Source of the DNA: Candidatus Woesearchaeota archaeon
GTDB lineage: Archaea > Nanobdellota > Nanobdellia > Woesearchaeales > WJKL01
DNA length: 64,000 bases
NCBI GenBank assembly: GCA_019322435.1
Contig: JAHWIR010000008.1
Span: 21,647 to 85,646 of the forward strand
Direction: 5' to 3'
A program made the translations under genes and the position numbers. Positions 25,244-39,414 of the stretch are shown one piece after another. Numbering within the stretch: position 1 is the first letter of the stretch; every line of letters starts with the position of its first letter. The notes under the pieces were generated by a model. It did no database searches. It saw nothing but the letters and a program-made list of their open reading frames with translations, and was not told where the DNA came from.

Positions 25244-26128
25244 TTATATTTTTTTTATTATTACTACTTCTTCAAGAAGTTTTTCAGCACTAGATATTAT
25301 TCTGGCTAATGCTCTTTCAAGTGATTTTTCTGTTGCAGAAAGTTTTTCTTCTATTCTTGCTGCTGCTGAGGATTCAACCAGATAAAGATCATTTCTTATT
25401 ACAGCCAATTGTTTTTTTAGTTCAGGGATAAGCGTGGAAACAGCAAGCTCTATTCTTTGAAGATCACGAAGTTCTTTTTCGATGTTTTTGGTTATTTCAT
25501 TGATATTTGCTATTTTCAGCCTGTCTAGTATCTTGTCCAGAGCTTCTATCTCCTTTCCCAGCAAAAAGATATTTTTAGAGACTTCAATCTTTTCTTTTGC
25601 AAGTGGTCTTTTGAGTATTTCAGGGGCTCCTGCTGTCTCGTACAGACGCCTGGCTGTTGTCTTGATCTCTTGTTTCAAAAGATTAAGCTGATTTGCTATC
25701 TGCGCTGATTGTTTTTTATCAGCCAACTTGTCTACTTCTCTGTGGAACTGGTCCAATGCTCTGGATTCCCGGTAGAGGATTGTGTCTGCGTCCAGGCAGA
25801 TGTTCTTTAGGTCTGATATGATGGAATCAATCTGTTTCAGCAGGTCAATTGTGTCATGCCTGATTATAGCAGAGAGCTCTTTAACAGTTGAGCTTTGTCT
25901 TGCGTATGTATCTCCAAGTTGAGGCTGCTTTTGTCTTAGTTTTACTTTTTGCACTGAAAGTTTTGATAATTCAGAATTTGCTTTTTTCAGTTTTTGAAAA
26001 TTTGGCTGAAGTCTTTTGCTTATCCTTGCAATCTCGTTCCTGGATTTCAGGATAGTTGCTGCATTTTCCTGGATAGACCTTGATAAAGAAGTGGAGGTTG
26101 CTAATCTGAGCTTGTATTGAGCAGCCAT
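25244..26128 (-). CDS. Hypothetical coiled-coil protein (294 aa)
   Basis: It is a long ORF encoding a heptad-rich, Lys/Glu/Leu-rich sequence. Confidence 0.5.
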   Translation of the reverse strand: MAAQYKLRLATSTSLSRSIQENAATILKSRNEIARISKRLQPNFQKLKKANSELSKLSVQKVKLRQKQPQLGDTYARQSSTVKELSAIIRHDTIDLLKQIDSIISDLKNICLDADTILYRESRALDQFHREVDKLADKKQSAQIANQLNLLKQEIKTTARRLYETAGAPEILKRPLAKEKIEVSKNIFLLGKEIEALDKILDRLKIANINEITKNIEKELRDLQRIELAVSTLIPELKKQLAVIRNDLYLVESSAAARIEEKLSATEKSLERALARIISSAEKLLEEVVIIKKI

Positions 26129-26129
26129 T

Positions 26130-27050
26130 TTAGGTCATGATTTTCAGTTCTTTTTGCGTGTTTTTTAATTCAGAGCCGATTCCCTTGCCTATTAAGAAGG
26201 ATTGCGGAGCAATGACTCCTGACAGCATATCTAAGATTGTTTTTTCTCTTTTGTATTCTGCAAATTCTATATCTTCTAATTCTAAGTTTGTTATCAGCCA
26301 TTGTTTTGCTGTTTCCTTGTCTCCTGTTGCATCAATCAATCCAAATTCCAAAGCTTCGATGCCTAGATAAAATTCTCCTGTTGAGAGATGTTTTGCTTTT
26401 TCATAATCCATGTTCCTGTTTTCTGCAACTGCTTTTATAAAGATTTCATGTATCTTATTTATCTTTGACTGTAGGATAGCTCTTTCATCCAAGCCTAATG
26501 GTTTGAATGGGTCTCCAATGTCTTTATATGCTCCTCCAACTAATCTTTGATAAGTCATATTGTATCTTTCTAACAATCCTGCGAATTCAATGTATGAGGA
26601 ATAGACACCAATAGAGCCTGTTACTGACATTTCATTTGCAATGATATAGTCTGTTGCAGAAGCAATCCAATAGCCTCCTGATGCGCCTACTTCTCTGATA
26701 ACTGCAACAGTTGTCTTGTTTACTCTTTTGACTACATCTGCTATCTCTTTTGAAGCTACTGCAGAGCCGCCAGGAGAGTTGATGTCGAGTACAATTGCTT
26801 CTATTGCTGGATTTTTATCTGCTTTTTGTATCTGCTCGATGATGTCTGTTGAGCTTGCTGCTTGTGTGCCAAATGAAGAAGCTCCTTCAACTGTGATCAC
26901 TCCCTTTATTGGAATTACAGCAACATTGCCAAATGGCTCCATGTCAATAAAAAAGATAGAGATAATAGAAACAAAGAAGAAACTTATTATTGCAAATAGG
27001 ATTAGTGCTATTATTACTGCTGTTAACCTCTTTTTTGGCTGCTGCTCCAT
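26130..27050 (-). CDS. sppA: Signal peptide peptidase SppA (peptidase S49), membrane-anchored
   Basis: An N-terminal TM helix is followed by an S49 core with GGSAVAS and GASGGYWIA segments. Confidence 0.8.
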   Translation of the reverse strand: MEQQPKKRLTAVIIALILFAIISFFFVSIISIFFIDMEPFGNVAVIPIKGVITVEGASSFGTQAASSTDIIEQIQKADKNPAIEAIVLDINSPGGSAVASKEIADVVKRVNKTTVAVIREVGASGGYWIASATDYIIANEMSVTGSIGVYSSYIEFAGLLERYNMTYQRLVGGAYKDIGDPFKPLGLDERAILQSKINKIHEIFIKAVAENRNMDYEKAKHLSTGEFYLGIEALEFGLIDATGDKETAKQWLITNLELEDIEFAEYKREKTILDMLSGVIAPQSFLIGKGIGSELKNTQKELKIMT

Positions 27051-27082
27051 CTTTATTTAATTTGTTTAGATTGTATATAAAA

Positions 27083-27574
27083 CTATCTAATCTTATATTT
27101 CTGTATAACAGTGATGTGGTTTAATTTTTGCATAAGTCTTTGATTTTTTGGGGAAGTGAGCATATAGAAAAAATCAACTGCCCACAGGATGATGAATATC
27201 TTTGCTGCAATAAATGTTATGTTGCTGAACAGATAGTTCCGGTAAGATGCTTTTCCTTCAGGCACAACATAGATCCCGAACAGTATCTGGCCTGGTGTCT
27301 GCTGGATCTTATACTGCAGGTAAGTAAAATAAAGCACTGCAATGAAACTCATCATAATCAAGACCGAATATAATCTAGAGACTATCAAGGGATTGCTTTG
27401 TATATAAGCCTGCTGCTGGGAAAATGTTCCTGGCGGGATGATCTTCCTGACTAGCCTGTCAAAAGGGAACAAGACAAAGAGGTCTAGGATTAAGATATCT
27501 ATTATGAAAGCAAAGATTCTTTTTGGAATTGATGCTGGTGCTAAGAAGAATTTATTACTACCTCTTTTTTTCAT
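27083..27574 (-). CDS. RDD-family membrane protein
   Basis: The KRIFAFIIDILILD RDD signature and TM helices are present. The start is placed at the internal Met so that the gene does not overlap the aIF-1A gene. Confidence 0.6.
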   Translation of the reverse strand: MKKRGSNKFFLAPASIPKRIFAFIIDILILDLFVLFPFDRLVRKIIPPGTFSQQQAYIQSNPLIVSRLYSVLIMMSFIAVLYFTYLQYKIQQTPGQILFGIYVVPEGKASYRNYLFSNITFIAAKIFIILWAVDFFYMLTSPKNQRLMQKLNHITVIQKYKIR

Positions 27575-27655
27575 AGAGATAGAGGGAGGGTATTTGTTTA
27601 AAAAAGTTGTTATTTTCGCAATGCTTATAAAGAAATCAGGGTTTTTAGAGGTAGT

Positions 27656-28000
27656 ATGAGCAAAAAGAAAGAAGAAGCTGCAAGGCAGGCTGCGATTGAG
27701 CGGCAGATTTCTAGAATCAGGCTTCCTAGAGGGAAGCAGACATTTGGCATTGTTGACCAAAGATTAGGCGGCAGCAGGATGAAGGTTAGATGCTTAGATG
27801 GAAAGACAAGGGTCTGCAGGATTCCTGGAAGGATGAAGAGATATTTGTGGGTGAGAGAAGGAGATGTCATCATTGTTGAGCCATGGGAATTGGGCGGAGA
27901 TGACAAAGGAGACGTCATCTACAAATATACAAAGAGCCAATTACAGTATATCAAAAGAAAAGGTTATCTAAAAAAGCTGGAAGAGTTTGAAGAGTTCTAA
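27656..28000 (+). CDS. eif1a: Translation initiation factor aIF-1A (S1/OB fold)
   Basis: The protein has an RLPRGKQ..G.V N-terminus, [38 protein letters not shown] and a C-terminal acidic end. Confidence 0.9.
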
Positions 28001-28054
28001 TTTACTACTCTAGAATAAAAATATTTAAATAAGAGTTCTTTTTTTGTATTTGAT

Positions 28055-28585
28055 ATGGGGGAAAACAAAGGTTCATTTATAATAACACTGATAGTGATGT
28101 TCATACTTTTCTTAAGCTGGATAGCTATTGTGTTCAACCTAGGCGGAAGATTCTATAAAGGAGAGCTGATATTGCTGGTATTATTCTTATTAGTGAGCCT
28201 TAAGCTGACTTTTGGCAGCAACCAATGGAGAGGGCTTATCAAGTTCTATTCATTAATATGGGTTAATTTTCTTTTTATCTATTTCATGAGATTCAGCATA
28301 AAAGAGGTTGTTTTGCCATTTGCAGTGAGCTTTATTGGATGGCTTGTTGCTATTGTCAAACTAGATTCAGATGATTTTGAAGAAGGTGATTGGGGAGAAG
28401 GGGAAAGTTTAGAAGTCAAAAAAGAGTTCAGTCCTGGAAAGTATGTTGCAAGCAAAACAGGAAAAAAGTTTCATGCGCCTAAATGCGACTGGGCAAAGAA
28501 GATAAAAAAAGACAATCAGATATGGTTTGAGAGCAAAGAAGAAGCTGAAACAGAGAATTTAAAGGCTTGTGATTGTGTTAATTAA
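28055..28585 (+). CDS. Membrane protein with C-terminal Ada-like/YHxxxC...CxC zinc-binding domain
   Basis: There are four or five N-terminal TM helices. The C-terminus reads YVASKTGKKFHAPKCDWAKKIKKDNQIWFESKEEAETENLKACDC. Confidence 0.5.
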   Translation: MGENKGSFIITLIVMFILFLSWIAIVFNLGGRFYKGELILLVLFLLVSLKLTFGSNQWRGLIKFYSLIWVNFLFIYFMRFSIKEVVLPFAVSFIGWLVAIVKLDSDDFEEGDWGEGESLEVKKEFSPGKYVASKTGKKFHAPKCDWAKKIKKDNQIWFESKEEAETENLKACDCVN

Positions 28586-28998
28586 GACAGTTTTTTTACC
28601 AATGCTTTAACCTGCTTGAGAATAAAGTCTCTTGTTTTTCTGAAGTCTTCAATTGGGTGGCCTACTACGTCAGGGGTTTGCCATTCGATTATCTTTCCTT
28701 TGGGTATCATTGAGGGAAAATTAGGAAGATGCTTGTTCATCTTGACTATCTTGTGTGCTGAGTCTAGTTCATCAAATTCCAGATGGGTTGGAGCTTTTTT
28801 AGTTACTTTTACTTTGATCTGTTTCAGCACTTCAACTGCATTGGGGTCTACAGTATGGATAGGAAGGGTTCCTGCGCTTGTTGCTCTATAGCCTTTTGGA
28901 GCAAATTTGTTGAAGATTGATTCTGCCATAATGCTTCTGATGGAGTTTCCGTGGCAGACAAATAATATTGTTTTTGACATTTTCTTCGAAAATTTCAA
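28582..28998 (-). CDS. Low-molecular-weight protein-tyrosine phosphatase / ArsC-family arsenate reductase
   Basis: LFVCHGNSIRSIMAE contains the CX5R P-loop. Confidence 0.8.
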   Translation of the reverse strand: MKFSKKMSKTILFVCHGNSIRSIMAESIFNKFAPKGYRATSAGTLPIHTVDPNAVEVLKQIKVKVTKKAPTHLEFDELDSAHKIVKMNKHLPNFPSMIPKGKIIEWQTPDVVGHPIEDFRKTRDFILKQVKALVKKLS

Positions 28999-29023
28999 AC
29001 CTTACTCATTTCATTCGTAAGTT

Positions 29024-29503
29024 TCATTTTTTCATGTTTGTTTTAATCATATATATAATTAACCTTATTACTCCTAATGTTATGGCTATGTCTGCGATAT
29101 TAAAAGCAGGCCATATCCTGAAATCAAGAAAATCAATCACATAGCCAAGATTGATCCTATCAATTAAATTGCCTAAAGTGCCTCCTAAGATTAATGCAGT
29201 TGCTATTTGCACGCATTTGTCATTAGGGACTGCATCATAGAAATAAAGGATAAGGCCTATGACAATTATTGAAAACCAAATCAGCAGGCTGGTGGATTGC
29301 TGGAACAATCCAAATCCAGCTCCTGTATTCTGGATATAGGTCAGATGGAATATATTTTGGATTATTGGGACTGATTGGAATAATTGAAGATTTCTTACTA
29401 CAGAGAATTTTGTTAACTGGTCTAGGAGGACTACTGCGACTGATGTCAGGAGGATTATAAGTGCCTTGTTTTTTTCAGTAGACTTCTTGTTTTTGAGATT
29501 CAT
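29024..29503 (-). CDS. lspA: Lipoprotein signal peptidase II (peptidase A8), bacterial-type
   Basis: Four TM helices are present. Conserved blocks are NTGAGFG, GGTLGNLIDR and FNIADIAI. Confidence 0.8.
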   Translation of the reverse strand: MNLKNKKSTEKNKALIILLTSVAVVLLDQLTKFSVVRNLQLFQSVPIIQNIFHLTYIQNTGAGFGLFQQSTSLLIWFSIIVIGLILYFYDAVPNDKCVQIATALILGGTLGNLIDRINLGYVIDFLDFRIWPAFNIADIAITLGVIRLIIYMIKTNMKK

Positions 29504-29738
29504 GTGCTATTCTCTCTATGTTTGCAAGCCGTTGGTTAATATTGTCTAAGATTGCTTTTAGTGAATCGAGTTTTGCATTAAGTAATTGTATGTCTCTTTC
29601 TACAGCTGCTGGCTGAGGCATAGCTGGCTGAGCCTGCGCATATGCTGATGGTGCAGGGGCTGGTGCTTCTGGCGGTGCTGGAGGAGCTCCTGGAGGAGTC
29701 AAACCTGTTGCTAATCCAGGTTCTGGCTCTACGCCCAA
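29475..29738 (-). CDS. Hypothetical Pro/Ala-rich + coiled-coil small protein; start uncertain (no upstream ATG; possible TTG start or internal ATG giving ~48 aa)
   Basis: The region is GC-rich and encodes PPGAPPAPPEAPAPAP followed by a predicted helix. It overlaps the lspA start by 29 nt. Confidence 0.25.
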   Translation of the reverse strand: MGVEPEPGLATGLTPPGAPPAPPEAPAPAPSAYAQAQPAMPQPAAVERDIQLLNAKLDSLKAILDNINQRLANIERIAHESQKQEVY

Positions 29739-29868
29739 AGCAATATCGCTTTCTTTTCCCAGTCCCAGGTCAACTGTAGGGGCTGGGGTCGACTCTGGCT
29801 CTTTATGCTTCCAGAAGAATAATTTATCTAAGATTGCGATTTTTATTCACCTCTTTTTTGCAATTCTA

Positions 29869-30012
29869 TCATTTTGCTATCAGGTATTTCAATACAAAAA
29901 ACACAACTCCAACAACTGCTAGGAAGAATGCTGTATGGATTAGTTTTTTAGTGAACTTCAGCAATACAAGTGCTATGATTATTGCCAGAATGACTAAAAT
30001 TATTGTTTTCAT
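29869..30012 (-). CDS. Tiny hydrophobic membrane protein (47 aa), paralogue A
   Basis: The ORF encodes MKTIILVILAIIIALVLLKFTKKLIHTAFFLAVVGVVFFVLKYLIAK. It is below the ORF-track cut-off. A tandem paralogue lies downstream. Confidence 0.35.
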   Translation of the reverse strand: MKTIILVILAIIIALVLLKFTKKLIHTAFFLAVVGVVFFVLKYLIAK

Positions 30013-30123
30013 TTTATCACCTGATTTATTATAAATTTACAGACTATATAAGTTTTTCGTAGAAAAACAATACTTGATTTGCTTTGCAAATCAATGTATA
30101 AACTTTTTGCAGAATTTATTATC

Positions 30124-30273
30124 TTACCAGCCTAAGAATAATTTTAATACAAAATAAACAACTGCGGCAATTACAATGAAAATAATCAATCCTATTATCT
30201 TTTTTGTTATCTTCCAGATAATTAAAGCTGCTATGATTGCAGCGATAATATAAATAATTGTTTTGATGTCCAT
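30124..30273 (-). CDS. Tiny hydrophobic membrane protein (49 aa), paralogue B
   Basis: The ORF encodes MDIKTIIYIIAAIIAALIIWKITKKIIGLIIFIVIAAVVYFVLKLFLGW, with the same WK.TKK...YFVLK pattern as paralogue A. Confidence 0.35.
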   Translation of the reverse strand: MDIKTIIYIIAAIIAALIIWKITKKIIGLIIFIVIAAVVYFVLKLFLGW

Positions 30274-30294
30274 TTTATCTTTTATAACCTGCAC

Positions 30295-30915
30295 TTATAT
30301 AAACTTTTTGCAGAATTTATTTATCGGGCAGGTTTTGCAAGAAGGTTTTTTTGTGCAGTTTTGTTTTGCTAGTTCTACTAATAAAGCGTGGTATTCATTG
30401 TAAAGTTTTGGGGATTTTTTTAATGATTTGTGGAATATATTTTGTAATTCATGATATTCGCATCTGTCTTTACACATCCCGATTCTTGAGAATATTCTTT
30501 TTGTGTAAGCGTCAATTACAAAAATAGGCTTATTGAAAGCGTATAATAGGATAGAGTCTGCTGTTTCTGGGCCTATTCCTTTTACAGCTAAGAGTTGCTC
30601 TCTTGTTGGATTTTTGTTTTTGCTGAAGAAGTTTGCTACAATCTTTAATCTCTCTGCTTTTTGGTTGTAATAGCCAGATGGCTTGATTAGTCTTGCTATT
30701 TTGTCTTTTCTTGTTGATTTTATTCTTTCAATTGAGATAAGATGCTCTTTTTCTAAGTTGGATAAAGCTTTTTCAACATTATACCAGGCTGTGTTTTGAG
30801 TTAGGATTGCTCCAATGATTACTTCAAACTGCTTATTGTTTGTTGAAGTCGGCCACCAGTTTTGAGGGCCAAACTTTTTGTGGAGAGCTTTGTAGATAGA
30901 TTGTATCTTGTTCAT
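30295..30915 (-). CDS. HhH-GPD superfamily DNA glycosylase (endonuclease III-like) with C-terminal 4Fe-4S cluster loop
   Basis: The helix-hairpin-helix reads LLAVKGIGPETADSILLYAF. The C-terminal CTKKPSCKTCPINKFC segment has a CX6CX2CX5C spacing. Confidence 0.75.
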   Translation of the reverse strand: MNKIQSIYKALHKKFGPQNWWPTSTNNKQFEVIIGAILTQNTAWYNVEKALSNLEKEHLISIERIKSTRKDKIARLIKPSGYYNQKAERLKIVANFFSKNKNPTREQLLAVKGIGPETADSILLYAFNKPIFVIDAYTKRIFSRIGMCKDRCEYHELQNIFHKSLKKSPKLYNEYHALLVELAKQNCTKKPSCKTCPINKFCKKFI

Positions 30916-30962
30916 ATAAAGAAGTATAAAATAAGTGATTATTATAATTATCTATATTTTGA

Positions 30963-32420
30963 TTAGGATAGAATCTTGGTTACCTTTTTTTTGAGCTTTT
31001 GATAAGAATTCAAACTTTTTTGAACTCCTTTGCCAGTCCAACAATATGTACATAATTTCTCTTTAGGAATGCCTATTGCTTTAACCATATCATCCAATAA
31101 CATATATCTCAAGGAAGTTACATCTATGTCTTTAGCAATCCAGTCAACCATTTTTTTATATTTTTCAGAATTTGGATCAAGGTATTCAGAAACATCTTCA
31201 ATATCCCTGCCTTCTAAAGCTCTTATTGCTCTTCTTGCAACTAACTCGTCAATGCTTCTGGTAGATAAGTTATACATACAGGGAAACATCAAAGGAGGAC
31301 AAGCAGGCCTTATATGAATTTCTTTAGCACCTGCACTTTTTAATTTAGTGACTGTAAAATTTTTGAGTTGTGTGCCTCTAACAATAGAATCATCACATAA
31401 AATTATTCTGTTGTCTTTGATTGTATCTTCGTTAGCTATTAATTTCATTAAAGCAATTCTATCCCTCTCTTCTTGCGATGGCGGGGTGTAGCTCCTGCCA
31501 TAACCCGGGGTGTATTTAAGTAAAACCCTTCTAAATGGTTTTCCAGATTCCATGGAATATCCAATAGCATGGGCTGTTCCTGAATCAGGAACACCTGAAA
31601 CAACATCTATTTCAACATTGTCGCGCATTGCTAAACATTTTCCGCAATTTTCTCTGACTTTCTCTACATTAATGCCTTCATAAGACGAAGCTGGAAATCC
31701 TGTATAAATCCACAAGAATGCACATATCTTGTTAATGTGGTTTCCTTTTTTCTTAATATCAATGCCTTTTTTATCAAGAAAAATTATTTCTCCTGGTTTA
31801 ATAAACTTTTTTATCTTCAAACCCAAATTAGGAAAGGAACATGTTTCACTGGCAATTGCTATTTCATCTTCTTTTTCACCAACAACCAAGGGTGTAACTC
31901 CATTTCTGTCTCTTGCAGCATATATTCCCTCTTTTGTTAATAAAAGCAGAGAGATAGAGCCTTGAATCTTATCATACATTTTTTCAATACCATCTATAAC
32001 AGAATCTCCTTGATTTATTAAGTTGGCAATAAGTTCTGCGCTGTTAACTTCTCCATCAATTACTTCACTAAAAGAAAAACCTTGTTTTATTAATTCTTTA
32101 ACCAACACTTCTTTATTTGTTATAAGACCAGCATAACATATTGAAAAAAACCCAAATCTGCTTTCAAAACTTAATGGCTGAGGATCTTTATCAGATATTA
32201 CGCCTATGCCTAGATTACCTTTTATTTCTTCAATCCATTTATGAAATCTTGATTTAAATTGTGAATTAGAAATAACATGGATCTTTTTAACAGGTTTTCC
32301 ATTTTCATCAATAAAAGCTATTCCTCCATATTCTGTACCTAAGTGAGTATGGTAATCTGTTCCATGGTATAAAGTAGAGATACAGTCATCATTGCTTACA
32401 ACACCAAATATTCCGCTCAT
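30963..32420 (-). CDS. purF: Amidophosphoribosyltransferase-like protein (PurF family) with Ser replacing the N-terminal Cys nucleophile
   Basis: The N-terminus is MSGIFGVVS, where PurF normally has MCGI(V/F)G. An Ntn-GATase-like domain is followed by a PRTase domain with the PRPP loop ILCDDSIVRGTQ. Confidence 0.8.
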   Translation of the reverse strand: MSGIFGVVSNDDCISTLYHGTDYHTHLGTEYGGIAFIDENGKPVKKIHVISNSQFKSRFHKWIEEIKGNLGIGVISDKDPQPLSFESRFGFFSICYAGLITNKEVLVKELIKQGFSFSEVIDGEVNSAELIANLINQGDSVIDGIEKMYDKIQGSISLLLLTKEGIYAARDRNGVTPLVVGEKEDEIAIASETCSFPNLGLKIKKFIKPGEIIFLDKKGIDIKKKGNHINKICAFLWIYTGFPASSYEGINVEKVRENCGKCLAMRDNVEIDVVSGVPDSGTAHAIGYSMESGKPFRRVLLKYTPGYGRSYTPPSQEERDRIALMKLIANEDTIKDNRIILCDDSIVRGTQLKNFTVTKLKSAGAKEIHIRPACPPLMFPCMYNLSTRSIDELVARRAIRALEGRDIEDVSEYLDPNSEKYKKMVDWIAKDIDVTSLRYMLLDDMVKAIGIPKEKLCTYCWTGKGVQKSLNSYQKLKKKVTKILS

Positions 32421-32563
32421 TATTAATACCCCCTAAATAAATCAAATTTTAGGTTATATAAAAAGTTTATTAAAGTGGATTAGTCATATCAGATTGATTT
32501 ACTATTTTAGAATACTAAAGAATAACAATATTTTTATATTAATTATTTATACCAAATATTAAT

Positions 32564-33061
32564 ATGGGGTTGGGGGAAGATCTTAGGGAATTTATGGATG
32601 AGCTTGAAGAGAATATCCCTTTAAGAGCGCCGTTGAGAAACGTAAATTGGACTGATACAATTTCTTTACCATATGGATCATGTCAAGAATGTCAAAAAGA
32701 GCCAGTGAGAGGCAGAATTCGGTTATATGATTTAATTGGTTTAATTGAATTTCATGAAAAAGAAGAAGATAAACCAGGCCTTGCACTTGTGAATTTTGCT
32801 CCTTATCTTGAGATTGCTGCTTGCAACGATCATTTAAAAAGAGCAATAAAAGAGTGTTTTCTTGGAACTTTTGAGTATCATGAAGATGGGAAAGACGCAT
32901 TGCATATAAGGGCTTATGACAATGTACTAATTCGTGTAGATCATTCTGATGGTCTGAGATATATTAAATTATCATATCCCCTTCATCCTTCAATTGATCA
33001 GAAAGCACGTTTTCTAGGGAAAATTTTTGAAGATATAATAATAAAGATAGAAAATATTTAG
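32564..33061 (+). CDS. Hypothetical protein (165 aa)
   Basis: ORF only; a CQEC pair is present. Confidence 0.45.
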   Translation: MGLGEDLREFMDELEENIPLRAPLRNVNWTDTISLPYGSCQECQKEPVRGRIRLYDLIGLIEFHEKEEDKPGLALVNFAPYLEIAACNDHLKRAIKECFLGTFEYHEDGKDALHIRAYDNVLIRVDHSDGLRYIKLSYPLHPSIDQKARFLGKIFEDIIIKIENI

Positions 33062-33084
33062 ACTTAAAAAATAAAAATTAATTT

Positions 33085-34383
33085 TTATTTGATCAAATGT
33101 TTTTCTTTATCCTGCTGTCCTTTCCATTCTGGGAATTGTCTTGTTTTCATCTCTATGTAATGCGCTGCTTTTTCTGCTTTTAGTTTTGCTTCTGCAACTG
33201 TAGATGCTGTTGCAAGAACAAGCCCCATTCTTCTGTTAATATGTGCTTCTGGCTTTCCAAAGGACATGAAGCTTATTCCTTTTCTATTCAAGGCGTTGAA
33301 TATATTGCCAAATGCAGGGTCCCAGCCTTCATAAGGGCTTAAAACAACATGTGTTGCTCCAGCTGTAAGTGATGGGACAACATTATAACCAAGCCGTTCC
33401 TCAGTTGGAACAGGCATTCCTGTTATTGCACGTACGTGCAGAGCTGTTTGTGAATATCCTACCTGGTGTGTTGCAAAAGTTACCATTCCTGTATCATGCG
33501 GTCTTGGAGAACACTCGTTTCCATAGACTTTATCGCCTTTGACAAAAAGCTCGCATCCAAAAAGGCCCATGCCTCCTAGAGCATCTGTTATTTTTTTTGC
33601 TGCTTCATAGATGCCTTTTTCAGCTTTCTCACTTACCTCTGCCATTTGCCAGCTTGAATGATAATCTCCTCCTCTTGTTTGATAATGGCCGACAGGTCTT
33701 GGGAAAGATGTTACGATTTTTCCATTTTCATCAAGATGCCTGACAGCTAGTTCAGTAACTTCAATGTCAAAAGGTATGTGCTGCTCAACAATCATCTTTT
33801 CTCCAGAGCCTCTTGCTTCGTTCTTTGCTTTTTCATAGGCTGCTTTGACGTCTTCTGGACCTTTCACAAAGCTTGAGCCATGGCCTGAGCTGTCCATTAT
33901 TGCCTTGACCCAGCAAGGATAGTTAAGTTTTTCACATGCATCTTTCATTTCATCTAAGGTTGTAGTATAGATGTATTTTGATGTTTCTACACCTGCTCCT
34001 CTTATTAATTCTCTTATTCTTTCACGCTGCATTGCTGCGTGTGTTGCCTTTGCATTTGGAATAATATTCCAGCCTTCTTTTTCCAGATCAAACAGCATGT
34101 CTAGATTTATTGCTTCAATCTCAGGAACAATAAAGTCTGGCTTTTCTTTTTCAATAATAGAACGAAGAAATCCTGCCTCCTTCATATTGCCTGCATAGAA
34201 CTTATGTGCAACCTGGTGACCAGGAGCATTCATATAACGATCAACACCTATTGTGTAGAAACCCATACGCTGCGCTTCAATTATAACTTCTTTTCCAAGC
34301 TCTCCGCAGCCAAGCAGCATTATTTTTGCAGCTTTGCCTGCTGGTTGTGAGAATAATACATTTCTCATCAATAACACCCCCAA
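33085..34383 (-). CDS. purT: Formate-dependent phosphoribosylglycinamide formyltransferase (ATP-grasp)
   Basis: The N-terminal KIMLLGCGELGKEV segment (PurT KVMLLGSGELGKEV) and an ATP-grasp body are present. Confidence 0.85.
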   Translation of the reverse strand: MGVLLMRNVLFSQPAGKAAKIMLLGCGELGKEVIIEAQRMGFYTIGVDRYMNAPGHQVAHKFYAGNMKEAGFLRSIIEKEKPDFIVPEIEAINLDMLFDLEKEGWNIIPNAKATHAAMQRERIRELIRGAGVETSKYIYTTTLDEMKDACEKLNYPCWVKAIMDSSGHGSSFVKGPEDVKAAYEKAKNEARGSGEKMIVEQHIPFDIEVTELAVRHLDENGKIVTSFPRPVGHYQTRGGDYHSSWQMAEVSEKAEKGIYEAAKKITDALGGMGLFGCELFVKGDKVYGNECSPRPHDTGMVTFATHQVGYSQTALHVRAITGMPVPTEERLGYNVVPSLTAGATHVVLSPYEGWDPAFGNIFNALNRKGISFMSFGKPEAHINRRMGLVLATASTVAEAKLKAEKAAHYIEMKTRQFPEWKGQQDKEKHLIK

Positions 34384-34505
34384 ATTTATTTATATTTTGA
34401 ATAGAAAAATATTCATATAAATATTTATTGGTTTTTTTCAATATATGTTTGATATCCACAACAATATTTATATATGAGTTATTTTTCAGTTAATTTGGGG
34501 GGAAG

Positions 34506-35582
34506 ATGCGAATAGTTGATGTTAATGGAGAATGTATAACAGAGGAGTCTTTTTCTTCTAAAAAAGATTTGATTATGGCGATGCATAAGCTTGGAGAAAG
34601 ATACTTGTCTCATGTCTATAGAGCCGGCAAGCTAACTACTGATATGGATGGTGTTATTATATATGATGATGGTGCTATGACTCTTACAAATCTTGTTGGA
34701 GGGGAAGAAGCTGAGAAAAAGTTTAGTGAATATGCTGGATTAAATATCAAAGCTGTTTCCGAAGGGCAAACTTGTTATTGCTGGTATGCTCCTAGTTTGT
34801 TTGGGTCTCAGTTATTAGAAGGGCTGTCTCCTGAGATTAATAGAGAGGTTGGGAAACATCTTCGGCTTATTCCAGGAATTGAAGAGTATATGGACAGACT
34901 TATTGACGGGCTTGGGTATGATGTTAGTGCTGTAACTGCAGGTCATCAGGAAGCTGCAGAAGAGGTTTCTAGAAGAGTAGGTATAGACAAGACAGTTGGA
35001 ATCCAACTTGGAGTTAATTCTAGATGCTATGATGGAACTATAGTAAGATTTATTGGAGGAGAGTATAAGCTTGGTGCTGTTGAAGATATTTTAGTCCATA
35101 ATGGCCGGTGTCTTGGAACACATGTGGGAGATAGCTGGTCTGATATTGAGACCTTAGCTGGAATTCCAAATTCTATTGCATTTAATCCAGGCTGCGAGCT
35201 TGCATTGAAGAATGCAAAGATTTCTATTATGGGTGTTTCTCAATTAGGGCTGCTGCCTTTTTTTGATTATATGGGAAAATATGATGAGGAATTAAAAGAA
35301 GAGGATTTGCCTCAAACAACAATAATAATGCAAGAAGGAAGCAATGGAGAGGGTAATTGGTTATCGGATTTATTGCAGGAGTCAAGGAAAGTAAAAAAAG
35401 AGGTTATTAGAAATATAATTGATCAAAGAGATGGACCTAGTTCAAAAGTAGAAGAAAGGATTAGGCATAGCTTAGTGCAGTCAGGCACAGATTTCCAAAC
35501 TAAACTTGAAAGGTTTATGGATAATGAAGAGTTTGATGCCTATGCAAAGAAAGCTTATGCAGAATTAGAGGGAGAAATATAA
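34506..35582 (+). CDS. HAD-superfamily hydrolase (phosphatase-like)
   Basis: Motif I is TDMDGVIIYDDG (DxDG) and motif IV is HVGDSWSD. Confidence 0.55.
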   Translation: MRIVDVNGECITEESFSSKKDLIMAMHKLGERYLSHVYRAGKLTTDMDGVIIYDDGAMTLTNLVGGEEAEKKFSEYAGLNIKAVSEGQTCYCWYAPSLFGSQLLEGLSPEINREVGKHLRLIPGIEEYMDRLIDGLGYDVSAVTAGHQEAAEEVSRRVGIDKTVGIQLGVNSRCYDGTIVRFIGGEYKLGAVEDILVHNGRCLGTHVGDSWSDIETLAGIPNSIAFNPGCELALKNAKISIMGVSQLGLLPFFDYMGKYDEELKEEDLPQTTIIMQEGSNGEGNWLSDLLQESRKVKKEVIRNIIDQRDGPSSKVEERIRHSLVQSGTDFQTKLERFMDNEEFDAYAKKAYAELEGEI

Positions 35583-36484
35583 TGCAAAGAGTTGTTTGTG
35601 TTGGATCATTGAATGTGGATACACAAGTATATGTGGAAAGATTTTGTGAAAATGATGAAGAACAGATTATAAGAGATATGTCTGTGGGCTCTGGAGGGCA
35701 AGCAGGCAATATTGCTGCTGGATTGGGGAAGCTTGGAAAGAAATCTTTTTTCTTTGGGAATATTGGAGAGGATGCATATACTTCGATGCTGACAAAGGAT
35801 TTTGATGACTGTAATGTGGATTACTCTTTTGCTAAAAGAACAAAGAATCCAAACAATGCTGTTGTTTCTTTGATTGACAAAGATGGAGAAAGAAGATTAT
35901 ATGCTTGTAATCATGTTGATCTTTCTCAGGCAGATTTTCCTGACAAACTTTTTGAGAATACAGCATTTATTGTGTTTACAAGTCTTATTAAAGAAGATGT
36001 TATTGAGCTGTATGTTGATATTGCAAAAAAAGCTAAAGAAAAAGGAATAAAGATTGCTCTAGATCCTGGGGGTATCCTTGCTCAGCTTGGTTTTGAAAGA
36101 TTAAGGCCTCTTCTTGAATTGACTGATTATTTTTTTCCAAGCAAAAGAGAGGCAGAATTGTTAGTCGGGGGTATAGGGAATATTGCTAAGATCTGTAAAT
36201 TGATTCTTAATGTTATAATTAGCTGTGGAAAAGAAGGACCAAGGGTTTTTGAGGATGGAGAGGAGATAACTAATTTTGAGGTAAAGCAGGCTAAGAAAAG
36301 AGTAGATACAACAGGAGCAGGTGATTGTTTTGCAGCTGCTTATATTTCAGCAATTATTGATGGGAAGAATAATGCAGAAGCAGCATGCTTTGCTAATTGT
36401 GCTGCAGCACTTTCAATTGAGAAGAAAGGCGCGAGGTCAATGCCAACTCAAAAAGAAGCGGAGGAGTTTATGAATGCAAGATAA
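35582..36484 (+). CDS. PfkB-family carbohydrate/nucleoside kinase (ribokinase-like)
   Basis: A CVGSLNVD N-terminus, a GG dipeptide and the DTTGAGDCFAAAY anion-hole/catalytic motif are present. Confidence 0.8.
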   Translation: MQRVVCVGSLNVDTQVYVERFCENDEEQIIRDMSVGSGGQAGNIAAGLGKLGKKSFFFGNIGEDAYTSMLTKDFDDCNVDYSFAKRTKNPNNAVVSLIDKDGERRLYACNHVDLSQADFPDKLFENTAFIVFTSLIKEDVIELYVDIAKKAKEKGIKIALDPGGILAQLGFERLRPLLELTDYFFPSKREAELLVGGIGNIAKICKLILNVIISCGKEGPRVFEDGEEITNFEVKQAKKRVDTTGAGDCFAAAYISAIIDGKNNAEAACFANCAAALSIEKKGARSMPTQKEAEEFMNAR

Positions 36485-39413
36485 TATCTTTAGAATATCC
36501 ATTGATTCAAAAGAGAAGAGTTCAGAAGCAAAGGTATTGGAAAAAAAGATAAAAAGCCTGGGTTATGATGTATCCTTAGATATTAGCAAGGTTTATACAA
36601 TTCAATATGATTTTGCTGAAGAGCAGATAAAAGAAATAGCTGATGCTTTATTTAATCCTGTTGTTGAAGTTCCGAGAATTAATTCTCCACTTCAAAAAGG
36701 GTTTGACTGGGCATTGGAGCTGGGATTTTTGCCTGGTGTAACTGATAATGTTGCAAACACAGCTGCTGAGATTATTAATGACCTTTTCAAAATCAATATA
36801 GGGAGGAACAAGGTATTTACTACAAAGGTTCTGTTTATTAAATCAGCTAATCTAACAAAAGAAGATATTGAGATTGTTGCCAAGGAGCTTATCAATATCT
36901 TGATAGAAAGATTCCATATAAAACATTATGATGAGTATAGTAGAGGGGATGGCATGGATTATATTGTGCCAAAGGTTAATCTTTCTCAAACACAGGATGT
37001 TATTGAGATTGATCTTGATATAAGTGATGAAGAATTAATTGAGCTAGGAAAAAAAGGAATTCTTGATCCTGAAACAAATACAAGAAGAGGGCCTCTTGCT
37101 TTGGATCTTGATTATTTCAAAGCAGTTCAAGCTTATTTTAGAAAAGAAGGGAGAAAGGCAACTGATATTGAGATCGAATCTATTGCCCAAACCTGGAGCG
37201 AGCATTGCAAGCACACAATATTTGCAGGACAGATGGATGATATTGAAGAAGGGATATACAAGAGATTCATAAGAGCTGCAACAATGAAGGTAAGAGAGGA
37301 GCTAGGAGAAAAGGATTTTTGCTTGTCTGTTTTTAAGGATAATTCCGGAGGCATTGTTTTTGATGATAATTATATGATCACTGATAAGACAGAGACCCAC
37401 AACAGCCCTTCTGCTTTGGATCCTTTTGGAGGATCAATAACTGGAATTGTTGGGGTTAATAGAGATACAATTGGTTTTGGGTTAGGAGCATTGCCTATTG
37501 TTAATAAATATGGTTTTTGTTTTGGGCGGCCTGAAGATAAAAGCATTATCTACAGGGGGCAGAACAAGACAAATGCTGCTCTTACACCAAGAAGGATAAT
37601 GGATGGTGTTGTGCATGGAGTTAATGTTGGAGGAAATTGCAGCGGGATTCCAACACCAGCTGGTTTTGTTTATTTTGATGATTGTTATAAAGGAAAGCCA
37701 TTGATTTTTGTAGGAACAGTTGGATTGATGCCAAGAAAGCTTCCTAATGGCAAAATAAGCCAGGAGAAAAAAGCAATGCCTGAAGATCATGTTGTTGTGA
37801 TTGGAGGCAGGGTTGGAAAAGATGGTATTCATGGAGCTACGTTTTCATCAGAAGCAATGGATGAAGGAAGTCCTGCTACTGCTGTTCAGATTGGAGATCC
37901 AATTACTCAAAAGAAATTATCAGATGCAGTGGTTAAGGAAGCAAGGAATAAGGGGCTTTACAATAGTATAACTGATAATGGGGCTGGCGGATTAAGCTGT
38001 TCTGTTGCAGAGATGGCAGAGGAATGTGGAGGATTTGTTGTTGAGCTAGAAAAGGTTCCTTTAAAATATCCTGGATTGCAGCCATGGGAGACCTGGATCT
38101 CAGAATCTCAGGAGAGAATGACTGTTGCTGTGCCTGATGACAAACTTGAGGAATTTAATAATCTCATGGAAAGCAGAGGTGTTGAATCAACTGTTATAGG
38201 CAAGTTTAATGATACGAGCAGAGCAATTGTTAATTTTAATGGAAAAGAGATATTTAATATTGACATAGATTTTCTGCATAATGGTTTGCCAAAAAGAAAA
38301 TTAGAAACAAAACCTTATCCATATAATACAGAAGAACCAGAGATTATTGTTGATAATCAGCAGGAATTATTTGAAAAAGTGTTGGGCAGCCATAATAATT
38401 GCAGTTTTGAGTTTATTTCAAAACAATATGATCATGAAGTTCAGAATAATTCTGCAATAAAACCTTTGCAAGGAAAAGGAAGAGTCAATGGAGATGCTTG
38501 CGTTGTTAAGCCTTTGTTTAATAGTAATAAATGTTTTGCAATATCACAGAGCTTATATCCAAGATTAAGTGAAATTAGCTGTTATGATACGGCTGCATGT
38601 GCAATTGATACAACAATAAGGAATTGTATTGCTGTTGGAGGAAATATAAATCATCTTGCGCTGCTTGATAATTTCTGCTGGTGCAGTTCAACTGAGCCTG
38701 AAAGATTAGCACAGCTAAAGGATGCTGCAAAAGCATGTTATGATTATGCTACTGTATATAAAACGCCATTTATTTCTGGAAAAGACAGTATGTTTAATGA
38801 TTTCAAAGGATTTGATGAGGAGAATAATCCTGTAAAGATCTCTGTTTTGCCAACATTATTGATTTCTGGCATTGGTGTGATTGAAGATGTAAATAATACA
38901 TGCACTATGGATTTAAAGATTCCAGGAGATGTTGTTTATATTATTGGAGAGACAAAAGATGAATGCGGTGGAAGTGAGTTTTATCATACTCTTGGAAAAA
39001 AAGGCGGAAAAAGTCCAAAAGTTGATGCTGAAAAAGCTAGAAGATTGTATGAAAAGGTATATGAATTGCATAAGAAAGGCATGTTTAGTGCTTGTGCTTC
39101 TGTTGGCAAAGGAGGATTATTGATTACACTGGCGAGGATGGCAATAGCTGGCCAGCTTGGGGTTGATGTTGATGTTAGTGGAGTAGCAGAGCTGCCTGTT
39201 GAGAGAATATTTTATTCAGAATCGCAGTCAAGATTTATTGTAACAATTGATCCTAAGAATAAAAAAGAGTTTGAAGAAGCTATGGATGCTATTGAGATTG
39301 GTGTTGTTAATGACAATGGGAGTGTTGTTGTGAAGAACAGCGGGGATGAGGTTATTAGCAGTGATGTTGAGGAATTGGGGAGAATTTATAGAGAGAGGTT
39401 TAAGGATTATTAG
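36474..39413 (+). CDS. purSL: Phosphoribosylformylglycinamidine synthase, PurS-PurL fusion
   Basis: An N-terminal ~80-aa PurS-like domain is followed by the PurL AIRS/AIRS_C duplicated domains. The protein is 979 aa. Confidence 0.85.
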   Translation: MQDNIFRISIDSKEKSSEAKVLEKKIKSLGYDVSLDISKVYTIQYDFAEEQIKEIADALFNPVVEVPRINSPLQKGFDWALELGFLPGVTDNVANTAAEIINDLFKINIGRNKVFTTKVLFIKSANLTKEDIEIVAKELINILIERFHIKHYDEYSRGDGMDYIVPKVNLSQTQDVIEIDLDISDEELIELGKKGILDPETNTRRGPLALDLDYFKAVQAYFRKEGRKATDIEIESIAQTWSEHCKHTIFAGQMDDIEEGIYKRFIRAATMKVREELGEKDFCLSVFKDNSGGIVFDDNYMITDKTETHNSPSALDPFGGSITGIVGVNRDTIGFGLGALPIVNKYGFCFGRPEDKSIIYRGQNKTNAALTPRRIMDGVVHGVNVGGNCSGIPTPAGFVYFDDCYKGKPLIFVGTVGLMPRKLPNGKISQEKKAMPEDHVVVIGGRVGKDGIHGATFSSEAMDEGSPATAVQIGDPITQKKLSDAVVKEARNKGLYNSITDNGAGGLSCSVAEMAEECGGFVVELEKVPLKYPGLQPWETWISESQERMTVAVPDDKLEEFNNLMESRGVESTVIGKFNDTSRAIVNFNGKEIFNIDIDFLHNGLPKRKLETKPYPYNTEEPEIIVDNQQELFEKVLGSHNNCSFEFISKQYDHEVQNNSAIKPLQGKGRVNGDACVVKPLFNSNKCFAISQSLYPRLSEISCYDTAACAIDTTIRNCIAVGGNINHLALLDNFCWCSSTEPERLAQLKDAAKACYDYATVYKTPFISGKDSMFNDFKGFDEENNPVKISVLPTLLISGIGVIEDVNNTCTMDLKIPGDVVYIIGETKDECGGSEFYHTLGKKGGKSPKVDAEKARRLYEKVYELHKKGMFSACASVGKGGLLITLARMAIAGQLGVDVDVSGVAELPVERIFYSESQSRFIVTIDPKNKKEFEEAMDAIEIGVVNDNGSVVVKNSGDEVISSDVEELGRIYRERFKDY

Positions 39414-39414
39414 A

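What the first reader, a model, noticed from the sequence alone, without database searches (positions are those of the whole stretch)
30963..32420. PurF-like protein lacks the catalytic N-terminal cysteine (MSGIFG instead of MCGI(V/F)G)
Class-II (Ntn) glutamine amidotransferases use Cys1 as the nucleophile, and here it is Ser. The PRTase domain and PRPP loop look intact. The protein may use ammonia directly. It may be a Ser-nucleophile variant, or it may have a different function such as a PurF paralogue. Either way this affects how de novo purine synthesis starts in this organism.
Basis: partly seen in the sequence, partly recalled or inferred. Interest (0 to 1): 0.5.

Follow-up and report, generated by a model that had tools for sequence, protein, structure and literature searches.

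The report
Cysteine-less PurF paralogue in purine cluster
The gene encodes a conserved copy of the first purine-synthesis enzyme whose glutamine-splitting site is dismantled, and close relatives carry it next to a normal copy, so it is an under-studied paralogue rather than the organism's ordinary PurF.

Summary
The ORF at 30963..32420 (-) starts M-S-G-I-F-G. An in-frame stop lies five codons upstream, and Ser is conserved in 115 of 118 close homologues.

Ser is not an isolated substitution. Arg26, the Arg-Tyr glutamine loop, the oxyanion Asn and Asp127 are all lost too. The PRPP loop, flexible loop, four Fe-S cysteines and overall PurF fold are retained.

The protein belongs to a large family of Cys-less PurF paralogues with S, G, A or T at position 2. 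The family occurs in Woesearchaeota, Thermoplasmatota, Omnitrophota, Planctomycetota and Muribaculaceae, usually inside purine clusters.

In six Woesearchaeota-type relatives and five bacterial loci a canonical Cys-PurF lies beside it or in the same cluster. This matches the PurF' described in Crenarchaeota in 2011, whose function was never tested.

The most likely role is ammonia-dependent PRA synthesis. A Ser-nucleophile glutaminase is unlikely.

One local twist: the closest relatives encode PurQ followed by a canonical PurF-PurD fusion, but this window has a PurQ-PurD fusion without the PurF module. Whether a canonical PurF exists elsewhere in this genome could not be tested.

The parts
30963..32420 (-). 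PurF'-type gene: a Cys-less PurF paralogue of 485 aa, starting MSGIFGVV
   Evidence: ORF. TIGR01134 purF scores 228 bits against a cutoff of 350. Best PDB sequence match is B. subtilis PurF, E 7e-59. AF2 model has pLDDT 85 and Foldseek TM 0.79/0.84 to 1ao0.
31725..32420 (-). N-terminal Ntn-type (class II amidotransferase-like) domain, aa 1-232, with a degenerate glutamine site. Ser2 replaces Cys1, and DYHTHLG (32337..32357) replaces LQHRGQ. The Arg-Tyr loop is deleted, YAGL replaces HNGN, and NSAE replaces (S/N)DTE.
   Evidence: PF13537 GATase_7 at 56 bits. Residue-by-residue comparison with B. subtilis PurF and with canonical Woesearchaeota PurF. This half is less conserved than the PRTase half: mean top-residue frequency 0.59 against 0.69.
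32415..32417 (-). Ser2 codon (AGC) at the position of the catalytic Cys1
   Evidence: Conserved as Ser in 115 of 118 close homologues.
32433..32435 (-). In-frame stop codon (TAG) five codons upstream of the ATG. It excludes a longer N-terminus or a propeptide.
31026..31724 (-). Type I phosphoribosyltransferase domain, aa 233-465. It carries the PRPP loop DDSIVRGT (31371..31394), the flexible loop LKYTPGYGRSYTPPSQEERDRIALMKL (31440..31520), and four Cys aligned with the B. subtilis 4Fe-4S ligands: C233 (31722..31724), C381 (31278..31280) and C457/C460 (31041..31052).
   Evidence: (invariant columns shared with canonical PurF).
32564..33061 (+). orf165, a conserved neighbour of unknown function
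   Evidence: No Pfam or NCBIfam hit. Homologues lie next to PurF' in L001 (32% identity) and L155 (42% identity).
33085..34383 (-). PurT, formate-dependent GAR transformylase
   Evidence: NF006766 scores 470.7 bits against a cutoff of 339. It is 88% identical to the PurT that directly precedes PurF' in L155.
36474..39413 (+). PurL, the FGAM synthetase subunit, 979 aa with an N-terminal extension
   Evidence: Pfam AIRS, AIRS_C and FGAR-AT_linker. TIGR01736 scores 518 bits. It is 76% identical to L155 PurL.
39415..41526 (+). PurQ-PurD fusion ORF of 703 aa, joining the glutaminase subunit of FGAM synthetase to GAR synthetase. The two closest relatives with long contigs (L072, L155) have PurQ followed by a canonical PurF-PurD fusion at this position, so the canonical PurF module is missing exactly here.
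   Evidence: GATase_5 plus GARS_N/A/C. purD scores 548 bits and TIGR01737 203 bits. The PurQ triad motifs GVCNGFQ and HPER are present. Residues 3-267 match L072 PurQ 26-290 at 74% identity. Residues 274-695 match L072 PurF-PurD 466-888 at 77% identity. L155 gives the same result.
41510..42640 (+). PurM-like AIR synthetase
   Evidence: Pfam AIRS and AIRS_C. TIGR00878 scores 198.5 bits, below the cutoff of 236.

Best explanation
The gene encodes a PurF'-type paralogue of glutamine PRPP amidotransferase.

Shown here:
- It has the complete two-domain PurF fold.
- The phosphoribosyltransferase half keeps every motif shared with working PurF: the PRPP loop, the flexible loop Gly-Arg and Lys, the VPDS loop, and four Cys aligned with the Fe-S ligands.
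- The glutamine-hydrolysing half has lost the nucleophile Cys, Arg26, the Arg-Tyr 'glutamine loop', the oxyanion Asn and Asp127.
- It keeps only a small residue at position 2, which permits removal of the initiator Met.
- It has gained a conserved DYHxHLG motif.
- The family is widespread in anaerobic archaea and bacteria and sits in purine gene clusters. In about half of the archaeal relatives examined, and in a few bacterial loci, it lies beside a canonical Cys-PurF.

Inferred:
- It cannot hydrolyse glutamine.
- It most likely condenses PRPP with ammonia to give phosphoribosylamine for PurD. The ammonia could be free, or could enter through the opened former glutamine pocket and the inter-domain channel.
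- It would therefore be an ammonia-dependent isozyme working alongside the glutamine-dependent PurF.

In this particular genome the canonical PurF module is missing from its usual place between PurQ and PurD. PurF' may therefore carry the step alone, but that depends on the unseen rest of the genome.
For: - Start and Ser are verified.
- Family-wide conservation of Ser.
- Loss of the whole glutamine-site residue set, with retention of PRTase and Fe-S residues.
- TIGR01134 scores below its cutoff (228 against 350), whereas the neighbouring canonical copy in L060 passes (351.3).
- PurF fold over the full length.
- Purine-cluster context in the window: PurT, PurL, PurQ-PurD and PurM.
- Purine-cluster context in relatives from Woesearchaeota, Omnitrophota, Planctomycetota and Muribaculum.
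- A canonical PurF with Cys, LQ(H/N)RGQ and GHVRY lies beside it in L038, L042, L046, L052, L056, L060, L068, L070 and L154. It is in the same cluster as a PurF-PurD fusion in L072 and L155.
- E. coli PurF with Cys1 changed to Ser or Ala loses glutamine-dependent activity but keeps ammonia-dependent activity. This is Mei & Zalkin 1989 as summarised in PMC3261824.
- The same paper proposed ammonia-dependent activity for crenarchaeal PurF'.
- The window's PurQ-PurD ORF lacks exactly the canonical PurF module that L072 and L155 have. That fits PurF' being catalytically sufficient.
Against: - No biochemical or genetic data exist for any member, and literature searches found no study after 2011.
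- Constant pairing with a canonical PurF would also fit a non-catalytic partner.
- A strongly conserved Ser and a new conserved DYHxH motif hint that the N-domain still does something specific. A purely passive ammonia port does not explain this.
- Many loci show no purine genes within 10 kb, including L073.
- PurC, PurE, PurB and the last two steps are absent from the window. The pathway genes are therefore dispersed or partly lost, and a canonical PurF may simply lie elsewhere.
Confidence: 0.5

Rival explanations
1. Non-catalytic or regulatory partner. PurF' would assemble with canonical PurF, which is normally a homodimer or homotetramer, or with PurD. It would act as a pseudoenzyme subunit for nucleotide feedback sensing, stabilisation or PRA hand-over, rather than making PRA itself.
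For: - It lies next to a canonical PurF across very distant phyla.
- It is in the same operon as PurF-PurD fusions.
- Half of the enzyme is demonstrably degenerate.
- It is much more conserved across the archaea-bacteria divide than the canonical copy in the same genomes: 59-63% against 35-37%. That would suit an interaction scaffold.
Against: - All PRTase catalytic and PRPP-binding motifs and the flexible loop are invariant between PurF' and canonical PurF. A non-catalytic subunit would not need them.
- Many loci have no canonical PurF within 10 kb.
- The window's own cluster has PurF' without a canonical module.
Confidence: 0.2
2. A different reaction. The PRTase half would transfer the phosphoribosyl group of PRPP to another nucleophile, or the remodelled N-domain (free N-terminal Ser plus DYHxH) would release ammonia from a donor other than glutamine.
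For: - It scores below the curated PurF cutoff.
- A new motif, conserved at 80-95%, sits where the glutamine site used to be.
- More distant Cys-less relatives occur in Patescibacteria. From my own knowledge, these generally lack de novo purine synthesis.
- Frequent neighbours outside the pur genes include a 522-aa protein of unidentified family, a 1079-aa carbamoyl-phosphate-synthase-like protein, and a 241-aa protein of unidentified family. These identifications come from sequence inspection only and were not family-scanned.
Against: - The dominant and phylogenetically widest context is purL/purQ/purF/purM/purD.
- PurF-specific features are kept: the flexible loop and the Fe-S cysteines.
- No alternative substrate is suggested by any evidence.
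Confidence: 0.15
3. Ser-nucleophile glutaminase. After Met removal, Ser1 would act as an N-terminal nucleophile, as Ser or Thr do in other Ntn hydrolases. The enzyme would still be a glutamine-dependent PurF.
For: - Ser is conserved in 115 of 118 close homologues, with Thr as the main alternative.
- The Ntn fold and the N-terminal beta-strand are retained.
- No propeptide is present, so the alpha-amino group would be free.
Against: - E. coli PurF C1S has no detectable glutamine-dependent activity (PMC3261824).
- The oxyanion Asn, Arg26, the Arg-Tyr glutamine loop and Asp127 are all lost.
- Among 62 Cys-less representatives of 50%-identity clusters, position 1 is G in 22, S in 17, A in 11 and T in 7. 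A nucleophile is therefore not a family requirement.
Confidence: 0.07
4. Artefact or decaying gene. This would be a mis-called start, a sequencing error at codon 2, or a pseudogene.
For: Brown et al. found that 3 of 58 archaeal purF genes had mis-called starts hiding the Cys.
Against: - An in-frame stop lies five codons upstream.
- The ORF is intact at 485 aa.
- More than 100 independent assemblies have the same MSG start, at 74-81% identity.
- The structure model is confident.
Confidence: 0.02

Closest known systems
Canonical glutamine PRPP amidotransferase PurF (EC 2.4.2.14), the B. subtilis 4Fe-4S type (PDB 1GPH, 1AO0)
   Same: It has the same two-domain architecture and fold, with Foldseek TM 0.79-0.84 and about 29-30% identity. 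The PRPP loop, the flexible loop and four Cys aligned with the Fe-S ligands are the same. So is the purine-cluster context.
   Different: It lacks the Cys1 nucleophile, Arg26, the Arg-Tyr glutamine loop (a 6-8 residue deletion), the oxyanion Asn and Asp127. It has no propeptide. It falls below the TIGR01134 cutoff.
PurF' of Crenarchaeota (Brown, Hoopes, White & Sarisky 2011, Biol Direct 6:63, PMC3261824)
   Same: It is a PurF homologue without the N-terminal Cys. It is encoded close to a canonical purF and other pur genes. An ammonia-dependent PRPP aminotransferase role was proposed but never tested.
   Different: Crenarchaeal PurF' mostly has Ala or Val at the position, whereas this clade has Ser. 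This clade is found in DPANN archaea, Thermoplasmatota and many bacterial phyla. Orthology with the crenarchaeal cluster could not be tested here because no crenarchaeal sequences were available.
Mlab_0150 of Methanocorpusculum labreanum (same paper)
   Same: [quoted passage not shown]
   Different: The authors described it as a recent duplicate of the organism's own PurF. The family here is an old, separately conserved clade that is 59-63% identical across domains.
E. coli PurF Cys1 to Ser/Ala mutants (Mei & Zalkin 1989, as cited in PMC3261824)
   Same: These are engineered equivalents of the substitution. They abolish glutamine use and retain ammonia-dependent PRA synthesis.
   Different: They are laboratory point mutants with the rest of the glutamine site intact. 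The natural family has remodelled the whole site and keeps it under selection.

Membership tests
Canonical PurF (TIGR01134, EC 2.4.2.14) | N-terminal catalytic Cys, exposed by Met or propeptide removal | tested here: not met
   Ser2 is encoded by AGC at 32415..32417, and an in-frame stop 5 codons upstream excludes another start.
Canonical PurF (TIGR01134, EC 2.4.2.14) | Glutamine-site residues: Arg26/Gly27, Arg73-Tyr74 loop, Asn101-Gly102 oxyanion hole, Asp127. Numbering is E. coli, and the roles are from my knowledge of the PurF structures. | tested here: not met
   Arg26 is Leu, the Arg-Tyr loop is deleted, Asn is Ala and Asp127 is Ser. Only the two Gly residues are kept. The same pattern holds across 62 Cys-less cluster representatives: Arg26 is kept in 11, Arg72 in 2 and Asn102 in 3.
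Canonical PurF (TIGR01134, EC 2.4.2.14) | Score at or above the curated equivalog cutoff | tested here: not met
   It scores 228.2 bits against a cutoff of 350. The canonical neighbour in L060 scores 351.3.
Canonical PurF (TIGR01134, EC 2.4.2.14) | Type I PRTase domain with PRPP loop and PurF flexible loop | tested here: met
   DDSIVRGT, GR and K of the flexible loop, and (V)PDS are invariant with canonical PurF in alignment A1.
Canonical PurF (TIGR01134, EC 2.4.2.14) | Two-domain PurF fold (Ntn domain plus PRTase domain) | tested here: met
   The AF2 model has pLDDT 85 and pTM 0.85. The top 17 Foldseek PDB hits are all PurF, with TM 0.77-0.84.
Canonical PurF (TIGR01134, EC 2.4.2.14) | Glutamine-dependent PRA synthesis | not testable with these tools
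   This needs an enzyme assay.
B. subtilis-type Fe-S PurF | Four Cys ligands of the 4Fe-4S cluster (Cys236, 382, 437, 440 in B. subtilis; numbering from my knowledge) | tested here: met
   Query C233, C381, C457 and C460 align with them and are invariant in A1. Actual cluster binding was not tested.
PurF' (Cys-less PurF paralogue; Brown et al. 2011) | PurF homologue lacking the N-terminal Cys nucleophile | tested here: met
PurF' (Cys-less PurF paralogue; Brown et al. 2011) | Encoded near other purine biosynthesis genes | tested here: met
   The window has PurT, PurL, PurQ-PurD and PurM within 10 kb. Relatives show the same.
PurF' (Cys-less PurF paralogue; Brown et al. 2011) | Co-exists with a canonical Cys-PurF in the same genome | tested here: inconclusive
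   Met in relatives L038, L042, L046, L052, L056, L060, L068, L070, L072, L154 and L155. There is no canonical PurF in this 64-kb window.
PurF' (Cys-less PurF paralogue; Brown et al. 2011) | Same orthologous cluster as the crenarchaeal PurF' proteins | not tested
Ser/Thr N-terminal-nucleophile hydrolases | Nucleophilic residue at position 1 conserved throughout the family | tested here: not met
   Position 1 in Cys-less relatives is G in 22, S in 17, A in 11 and T in 7.

The most novel reading that the evidence does not exclude
In this Woesearchaeote the canonical PurF was excised from a PurQ | PurF-PurD arrangement, leaving a PurQ-PurD fusion. The Cys-less PurF' would then be the only enzyme for step 1. 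It would take ammonia either from the environment or from the PurQ glutaminase now tethered to PurD. That would amount to a trans-acting, shared glutaminase feeding two amidotransfer steps inside a PurL-PurQ-PurD-PurF' assembly that also channels the unstable PRA.
Probability: 0.12. Interest if true: 0.75.

Novelty: new member of a known kind. Interest (0 to 1): 0.4.

Why it matters
Databases name thousands of these proteins 'amidophosphoribosyltransferase', although they cannot use glutamine the way PurF does. Metabolic reconstructions of DPANN archaea, Omnitrophota, Planctomycetota and gut Bacteroidales may therefore mis-score step 1 of purine synthesis.

The family is strongly conserved. 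It is about 60% identical between archaea and bacteria, whereas the canonical enzyme in the same genomes is about 36% identical. It is tied to purine operons and has never been characterised.

If it is an ammonia-dependent PRA synthase, it would be a second entry into purine synthesis that spares glutamine and ATP in ammonium-rich anoxic habitats.

This window adds a possible natural test of sufficiency, because its cluster keeps PurF' but lacks the canonical module.

Tried and rejected
- **Upstream start giving M-C-G.** Rejected, because an in-frame TAG lies 5 codons upstream.
- **Second PurF in the window.** None was found by tblastn with PurF', with two kinds of canonical Woesearchaeota PurF, or with a PurF-PurD fusion.
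- **Extending beyond the window to find a canonical PurF in the same MAG.** The look-up of encoding contigs has no record of P0001 or of the 803..2611 product. It returned only a 1.2-kb contig for the 61899..62564 product.
- **Testing whether the PurQ-PurD fusion recurs elsewhere.** The metagenome scan with the junction peptide returned only PurD-part matches, because the generic IGGGGREH pattern dominated. Nothing spanned the junction. The fusion is so far unique, and an assembly artefact cannot be fully excluded.
- **AFDB fold search for named cultured homologues.** The library was not available.
- **Literature after 2011 on PurF' or Cys-less PurF.** Six searches found nothing beyond PMC3261824. 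The Fibro-purF riboswitch paper is not relevant to the Cys question.
- **Rfam and tRNA scans.** Rfam found no regulatory RNA in the window and the tRNA scan found no tRNA genes.
- **Cluster look-ups to name distant Cys-less groups.** They gave only Muribaculaceae and Patescibacteria labels and no Crenarchaeota, so orthology with the original PurF' stays untested.
- **Asp127.** I first took it to be retained, from the HMMER pairwise alignment. Multiple alignments anchored on the invariant Glu129 place Ser there instead.
Full report
**1. The observation**

The ORF at 30963..32420 on the minus strand encodes 485 aa and begins ATG AGC GGA ATA TTT GGT, giving MSGIFG. Five codons upstream in the same frame is a TAG at 32433..32435, so no longer N-terminus or propeptide containing Cys can be translated. 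The protein is identical to an NCBI entry annotated 'amidophosphoribosyltransferase [Candidatus Woesearchaeota archaeon]'.

The window is archaeal. It carries split RpoB and RpoA genes, NusA-KH, S12/S7, Gins51 and aIF2-alpha.

Ser at position 2 is not noise. Of the 120 closest database homologues (74-81% identity), 115 of 118 informative N-termini read MSG, two MTG and one MGG. Of 58 full-length orthologues translated from GTDB genomes, 55 have Ser.

**2. What else is different in the protein**

The best solved relative is B. subtilis PurF (E 7e-59). An AlphaFold model (pLDDT 85, pTM 0.85) superimposes on PurF structures over both domains (TM 0.77-0.84). Yet the curated PurF model TIGR01134 gives only 228 bits against a cutoff of 350.

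I aligned the protein with B. subtilis PurF and with canonical PurF proteins from Woesearchaeota. The whole glutamine site is dismantled, not just Cys1:

- LQHRGQ (Arg26) has become DYHTHLG.
- The GHVRYAT segment carrying the Arg-Tyr 'glutamine loop' is shortened by 6-8 residues, to GVI-S.
- The oxyanion HNGN is YAGL.
- (S/N)DTE (Asp127) is NSAE.

The roles of these residues come from my knowledge of the E. coli and B. subtilis PurF structures.

The PRTase half, in contrast, keeps every column that is invariant between the paralogues:

- the PRPP loop DDSIVRGT
- Gly-Arg and Lys of the flexible loop
- the VPDS loop
- four Cys aligned with the 4Fe-4S ligands (C233, C381, C457, C460)

Within the family the N-domain is less conserved than the PRTase domain. 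The mean top-residue frequency is 0.59 against 0.69, with 14 against 28 positions at 95% or more. The N-domain is still clearly under selection, and it includes a new motif: D22, Y23 and H24 at 80% or more, and H26 at 95% or more.

**3. The family**

An exhaustive search of 1.8 billion cluster representatives shows that the nearest relatives are all Cys-less. Among 86 full-length representatives in the top 150, 62 lack Cys at position 1. The residue there is G in 22, S in 17, A in 11 and T in 7. Almost all of these also lack Arg26, the Arg-Tyr loop and the oxyanion Asn. The first fully canonical PurF appears only at about rank 95.

S, G, A and T are residues that allow removal of the initiator Met. 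That fits a structural need for a short free N-terminus at the start of the central Ntn beta-strand. It does not fit a need for a nucleophile.

A scan of GTDB genomes found 66 loci. Archaeal hits were Woesearchaeota/Nanoarchaeia and Thermoplasmatota at 73-79% identity. Most hits, however, were bacterial at 51-66% identity: Omnitrophota, Planctomycetota, Krumholzibacteriota, Acidobacteriota and others.

A more distant Gly-type branch (43% identity) occurs in Muribaculaceae, including the cultured Muribaculum intestinale. There the gene directly follows the large purL.

**4. Genomic context: it is a paralogue that travels with a real PurF**

In bacterial loci L038, L042, L046, L052 and L056, the Ser-type gene lies within 1.7 kb of a second PurF homologue that is about 30% identical. 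In L042, L046 and L052 the two are directly adjacent. This second copy has a propeptide followed by CG(L/V)FG, LQHRG(Q/E) and GHVRYS. The typical gene order is purL-purQ-purF'-purF-purM...purD.

The same holds for the closest archaeal relatives:

- In L060, L068, L070 and L154 (78-81% identity), a 510-529-aa canonical PurF is transcribed divergently from PurF'. It has the N-terminus MSGEIxDEC-GIAAV and passes the TIGR01134 cutoff at 351 bits. It is flanked by two PurP homologues. In L060, L068 and L070 GuaA is also nearby, and in L060 and L068 PurD is too.
- In L072 and L155 (78-79% identity), PurF' sits next to purL-purQ and an 889-891-aa canonical PurF-PurD fusion that starts MCGIIGV.

This is the situation Brown et al. 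(2011, PMC3261824) described for Crenarchaeota as PurF/PurF', and for Methanocorpusculum as Mlab_0150 (Ser) alongside Mlab_0202. They suggested PurF' might be an ammonia-dependent PRPP aminotransferase. They also recalled that E. coli PurF C1S and C1A lose glutamine-dependent but not ammonia-dependent activity. I found no later experimental work.

**5. The window's own cluster**

Around the gene lie these features:

- orf165 at 32564..33061, of unknown family but with homologues next to PurF' in L001 and L155
- PurT
- a HAD hydrolase
- a PfkB ribokinase/ribose-1-phosphate-kinase-like gene
- PurL
- a single ORF fusing PurQ to PurD (39415..41526), with the PurQ catalytic motifs intact
- PurM

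No canonical PurF, PurC, PurE, PurB, PurN, PurP or PurH homologue is in the 64 kb.

Residues 3-267 of the PurQ-PurD ORF match L072 PurQ 26-290 at 74% identity. Residues 274-695 match residues 466-888 of the L072 PurF-PurD fusion at 77% identity (same against L155). The window therefore lacks precisely the ~465-aa canonical PurF module that the two closest relatives with long contigs (L072 and L155) have between PurQ and PurD.

Either that module was deleted in frame in this lineage, or it was inserted in the relatives. I could not find the fusion elsewhere. I also could not inspect the rest of the MAG. It remains open whether this organism has a canonical PurF at another locus. That is plausible, because PurC, PurE and PurB must also be elsewhere if the pathway works.

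**6. Evolutionary note**

Between the archaeal locus L060 and five bacterial loci, PurF' is 59-63% identical. The canonical PurF proteins encoded next to them are only 35-37% identical. Among close bacteria the two evolve at similar rates (about 72% against 77%). The plateau near 60% therefore points to inter-domain transfer of PurF', to an unusually constrained core, or to both.

**7. Mechanism**

Shown: a PurF fold, an intact PRTase and Fe-S half, a dismantled glutaminase site, a purine-operon context, and frequent co-occurrence with canonical PurF in relatives.

Inferred: the protein cannot hydrolyse glutamine. Its default chemistry, as in Cys1 mutants of E. coli PurF, is PRPP + NH3 -> PRA + PPi. 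Deletion of the glutamine loop would leave the former pocket open as an ammonia entrance to the inter-domain channel. The conserved Asp-Tyr-His-x-His could bind or deprotonate ammonium, but that is speculation.

I give this ammonia-dependent isozyme model about 0.5. The rivals are:

- a non-catalytic partner of PurF or PurD (0.2), disfavoured by the invariant catalytic PRTase motifs
- a different PRPP-dependent or donor-dependent reaction (0.15)
- a Ser-nucleophile glutaminase (0.07), disfavoured by the loss of all other site residues and by Gly or Ala in sister clades
- an artefact (0.02)

**8. Verdict**

The finding is not a new kind of enzyme. It is a new, well-conserved and very widespread member of the already noted but uncharacterised PurF' class, currently mis-named as PurF in databases.

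The window-specific absence of the canonical PurF module and the PurQ-PurD fusion make this contig a useful test case. The strong claim that the organism starts purine synthesis without a glutamine-dependent PurF is not established.

Noticed in passing
window 39415..41526 (+): PurQ (glutaminase subunit of FGAM synthetase, catalytic motifs intact) and PurD are fused in one 703-aa ORF. The relatives L072 and L155 have PurQ followed by a canonical PurF-PurD fusion instead. The junction reads ...FKNAVDFVKNKQGVKMDNINVLIIGGGG. A metagenome scan found no other example.
   Followed up: partly
L072 3455..6130 (-); L155 2129..4798 (-): Canonical PurF-PurD fusion proteins of 889-891 aa occur in Woesearchaeota relatives. 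They join the producer and the consumer of the unstable PRA in one polypeptide.
   Followed up: partly
window 32564..33061 (+): orf165 has no Pfam or NCBIfam match. Homologues sit next to PurF' in L001 (32% identity) and L155 (42% identity), so it may be a functional partner.
   Followed up: partly
window 34506..36484 (+): A HAD-family hydrolase and a PfkB kinase lie inside the purine cluster, between PurT and PurL. The kinase's best NCBIfam matches, all below cutoff, are ribose-1-phosphate kinase and ribokinase. The pair might feed ribose phosphate into PRPP.
   Followed up: no
window 36474..39413 (+): PurL is 979 aa. About 220 residues precede the region that matches the PurL subunit model, which may be a fused PurS-like or N-terminal FGAR-AT domain.
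   Followed up: no
L060 versus L038, L042, L046, L052, L056: PurF' is 59-63% identical between an archaeon and bacteria. The canonical PurF proteins encoded beside them are only 35-37% identical. This suggests inter-domain transfer or extreme constraint on PurF'.
   Followed up: partly
window 29024..29503 (-) and 29475..29738 (-): A strong lipoprotein signal peptidase II (LspA, Peptidase_A8, 135 bits) is present in an archaeal genome. It is preceded by an 87-aa ORF with a Pro/Ala-rich N-terminal half that stands out in this AT-rich sequence.
   Followed up: no
window 8968..16925 (-): A co-directional run of seven ORFs. The first five are an Orn/Arg/DAP-type decarboxylase, a class I/II aminotransferase, an arginase-family enzyme, a PALP enzyme and a radical-SAM-like protein. 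The last two are a 461-aa protein with no family and a GTPase. The run may be a polyamine or modified-amino-acid pathway.
   Followed up: no
window 45309..47681 (+) and 55342..59040 (+): Two very large proteins (790 and 1232 aa) have S-layer-like outer-domain matches.
   Followed up: no
L004-L019 and others (bacterial loci): Recurrent neighbours immediately upstream of bacterial PurF' outside the pur genes. One is a 522-aa protein of unidentified family, in 10 loci. Another is a 1079-aa carbamoyl-phosphate-synthase-large-subunit-like protein, in 9 loci. A third is a 241-aa protein of unidentified family, in 8 loci. These identifications are from sequence inspection only and were not family-scanned.
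   Followed up: no
window 1..64000: The whole 64 kb has no tRNA gene and no Rfam family above its gathering score. GC skew is persistently positive from about 36 kb onward, matching the run of plus-strand genes.
   Followed up: no
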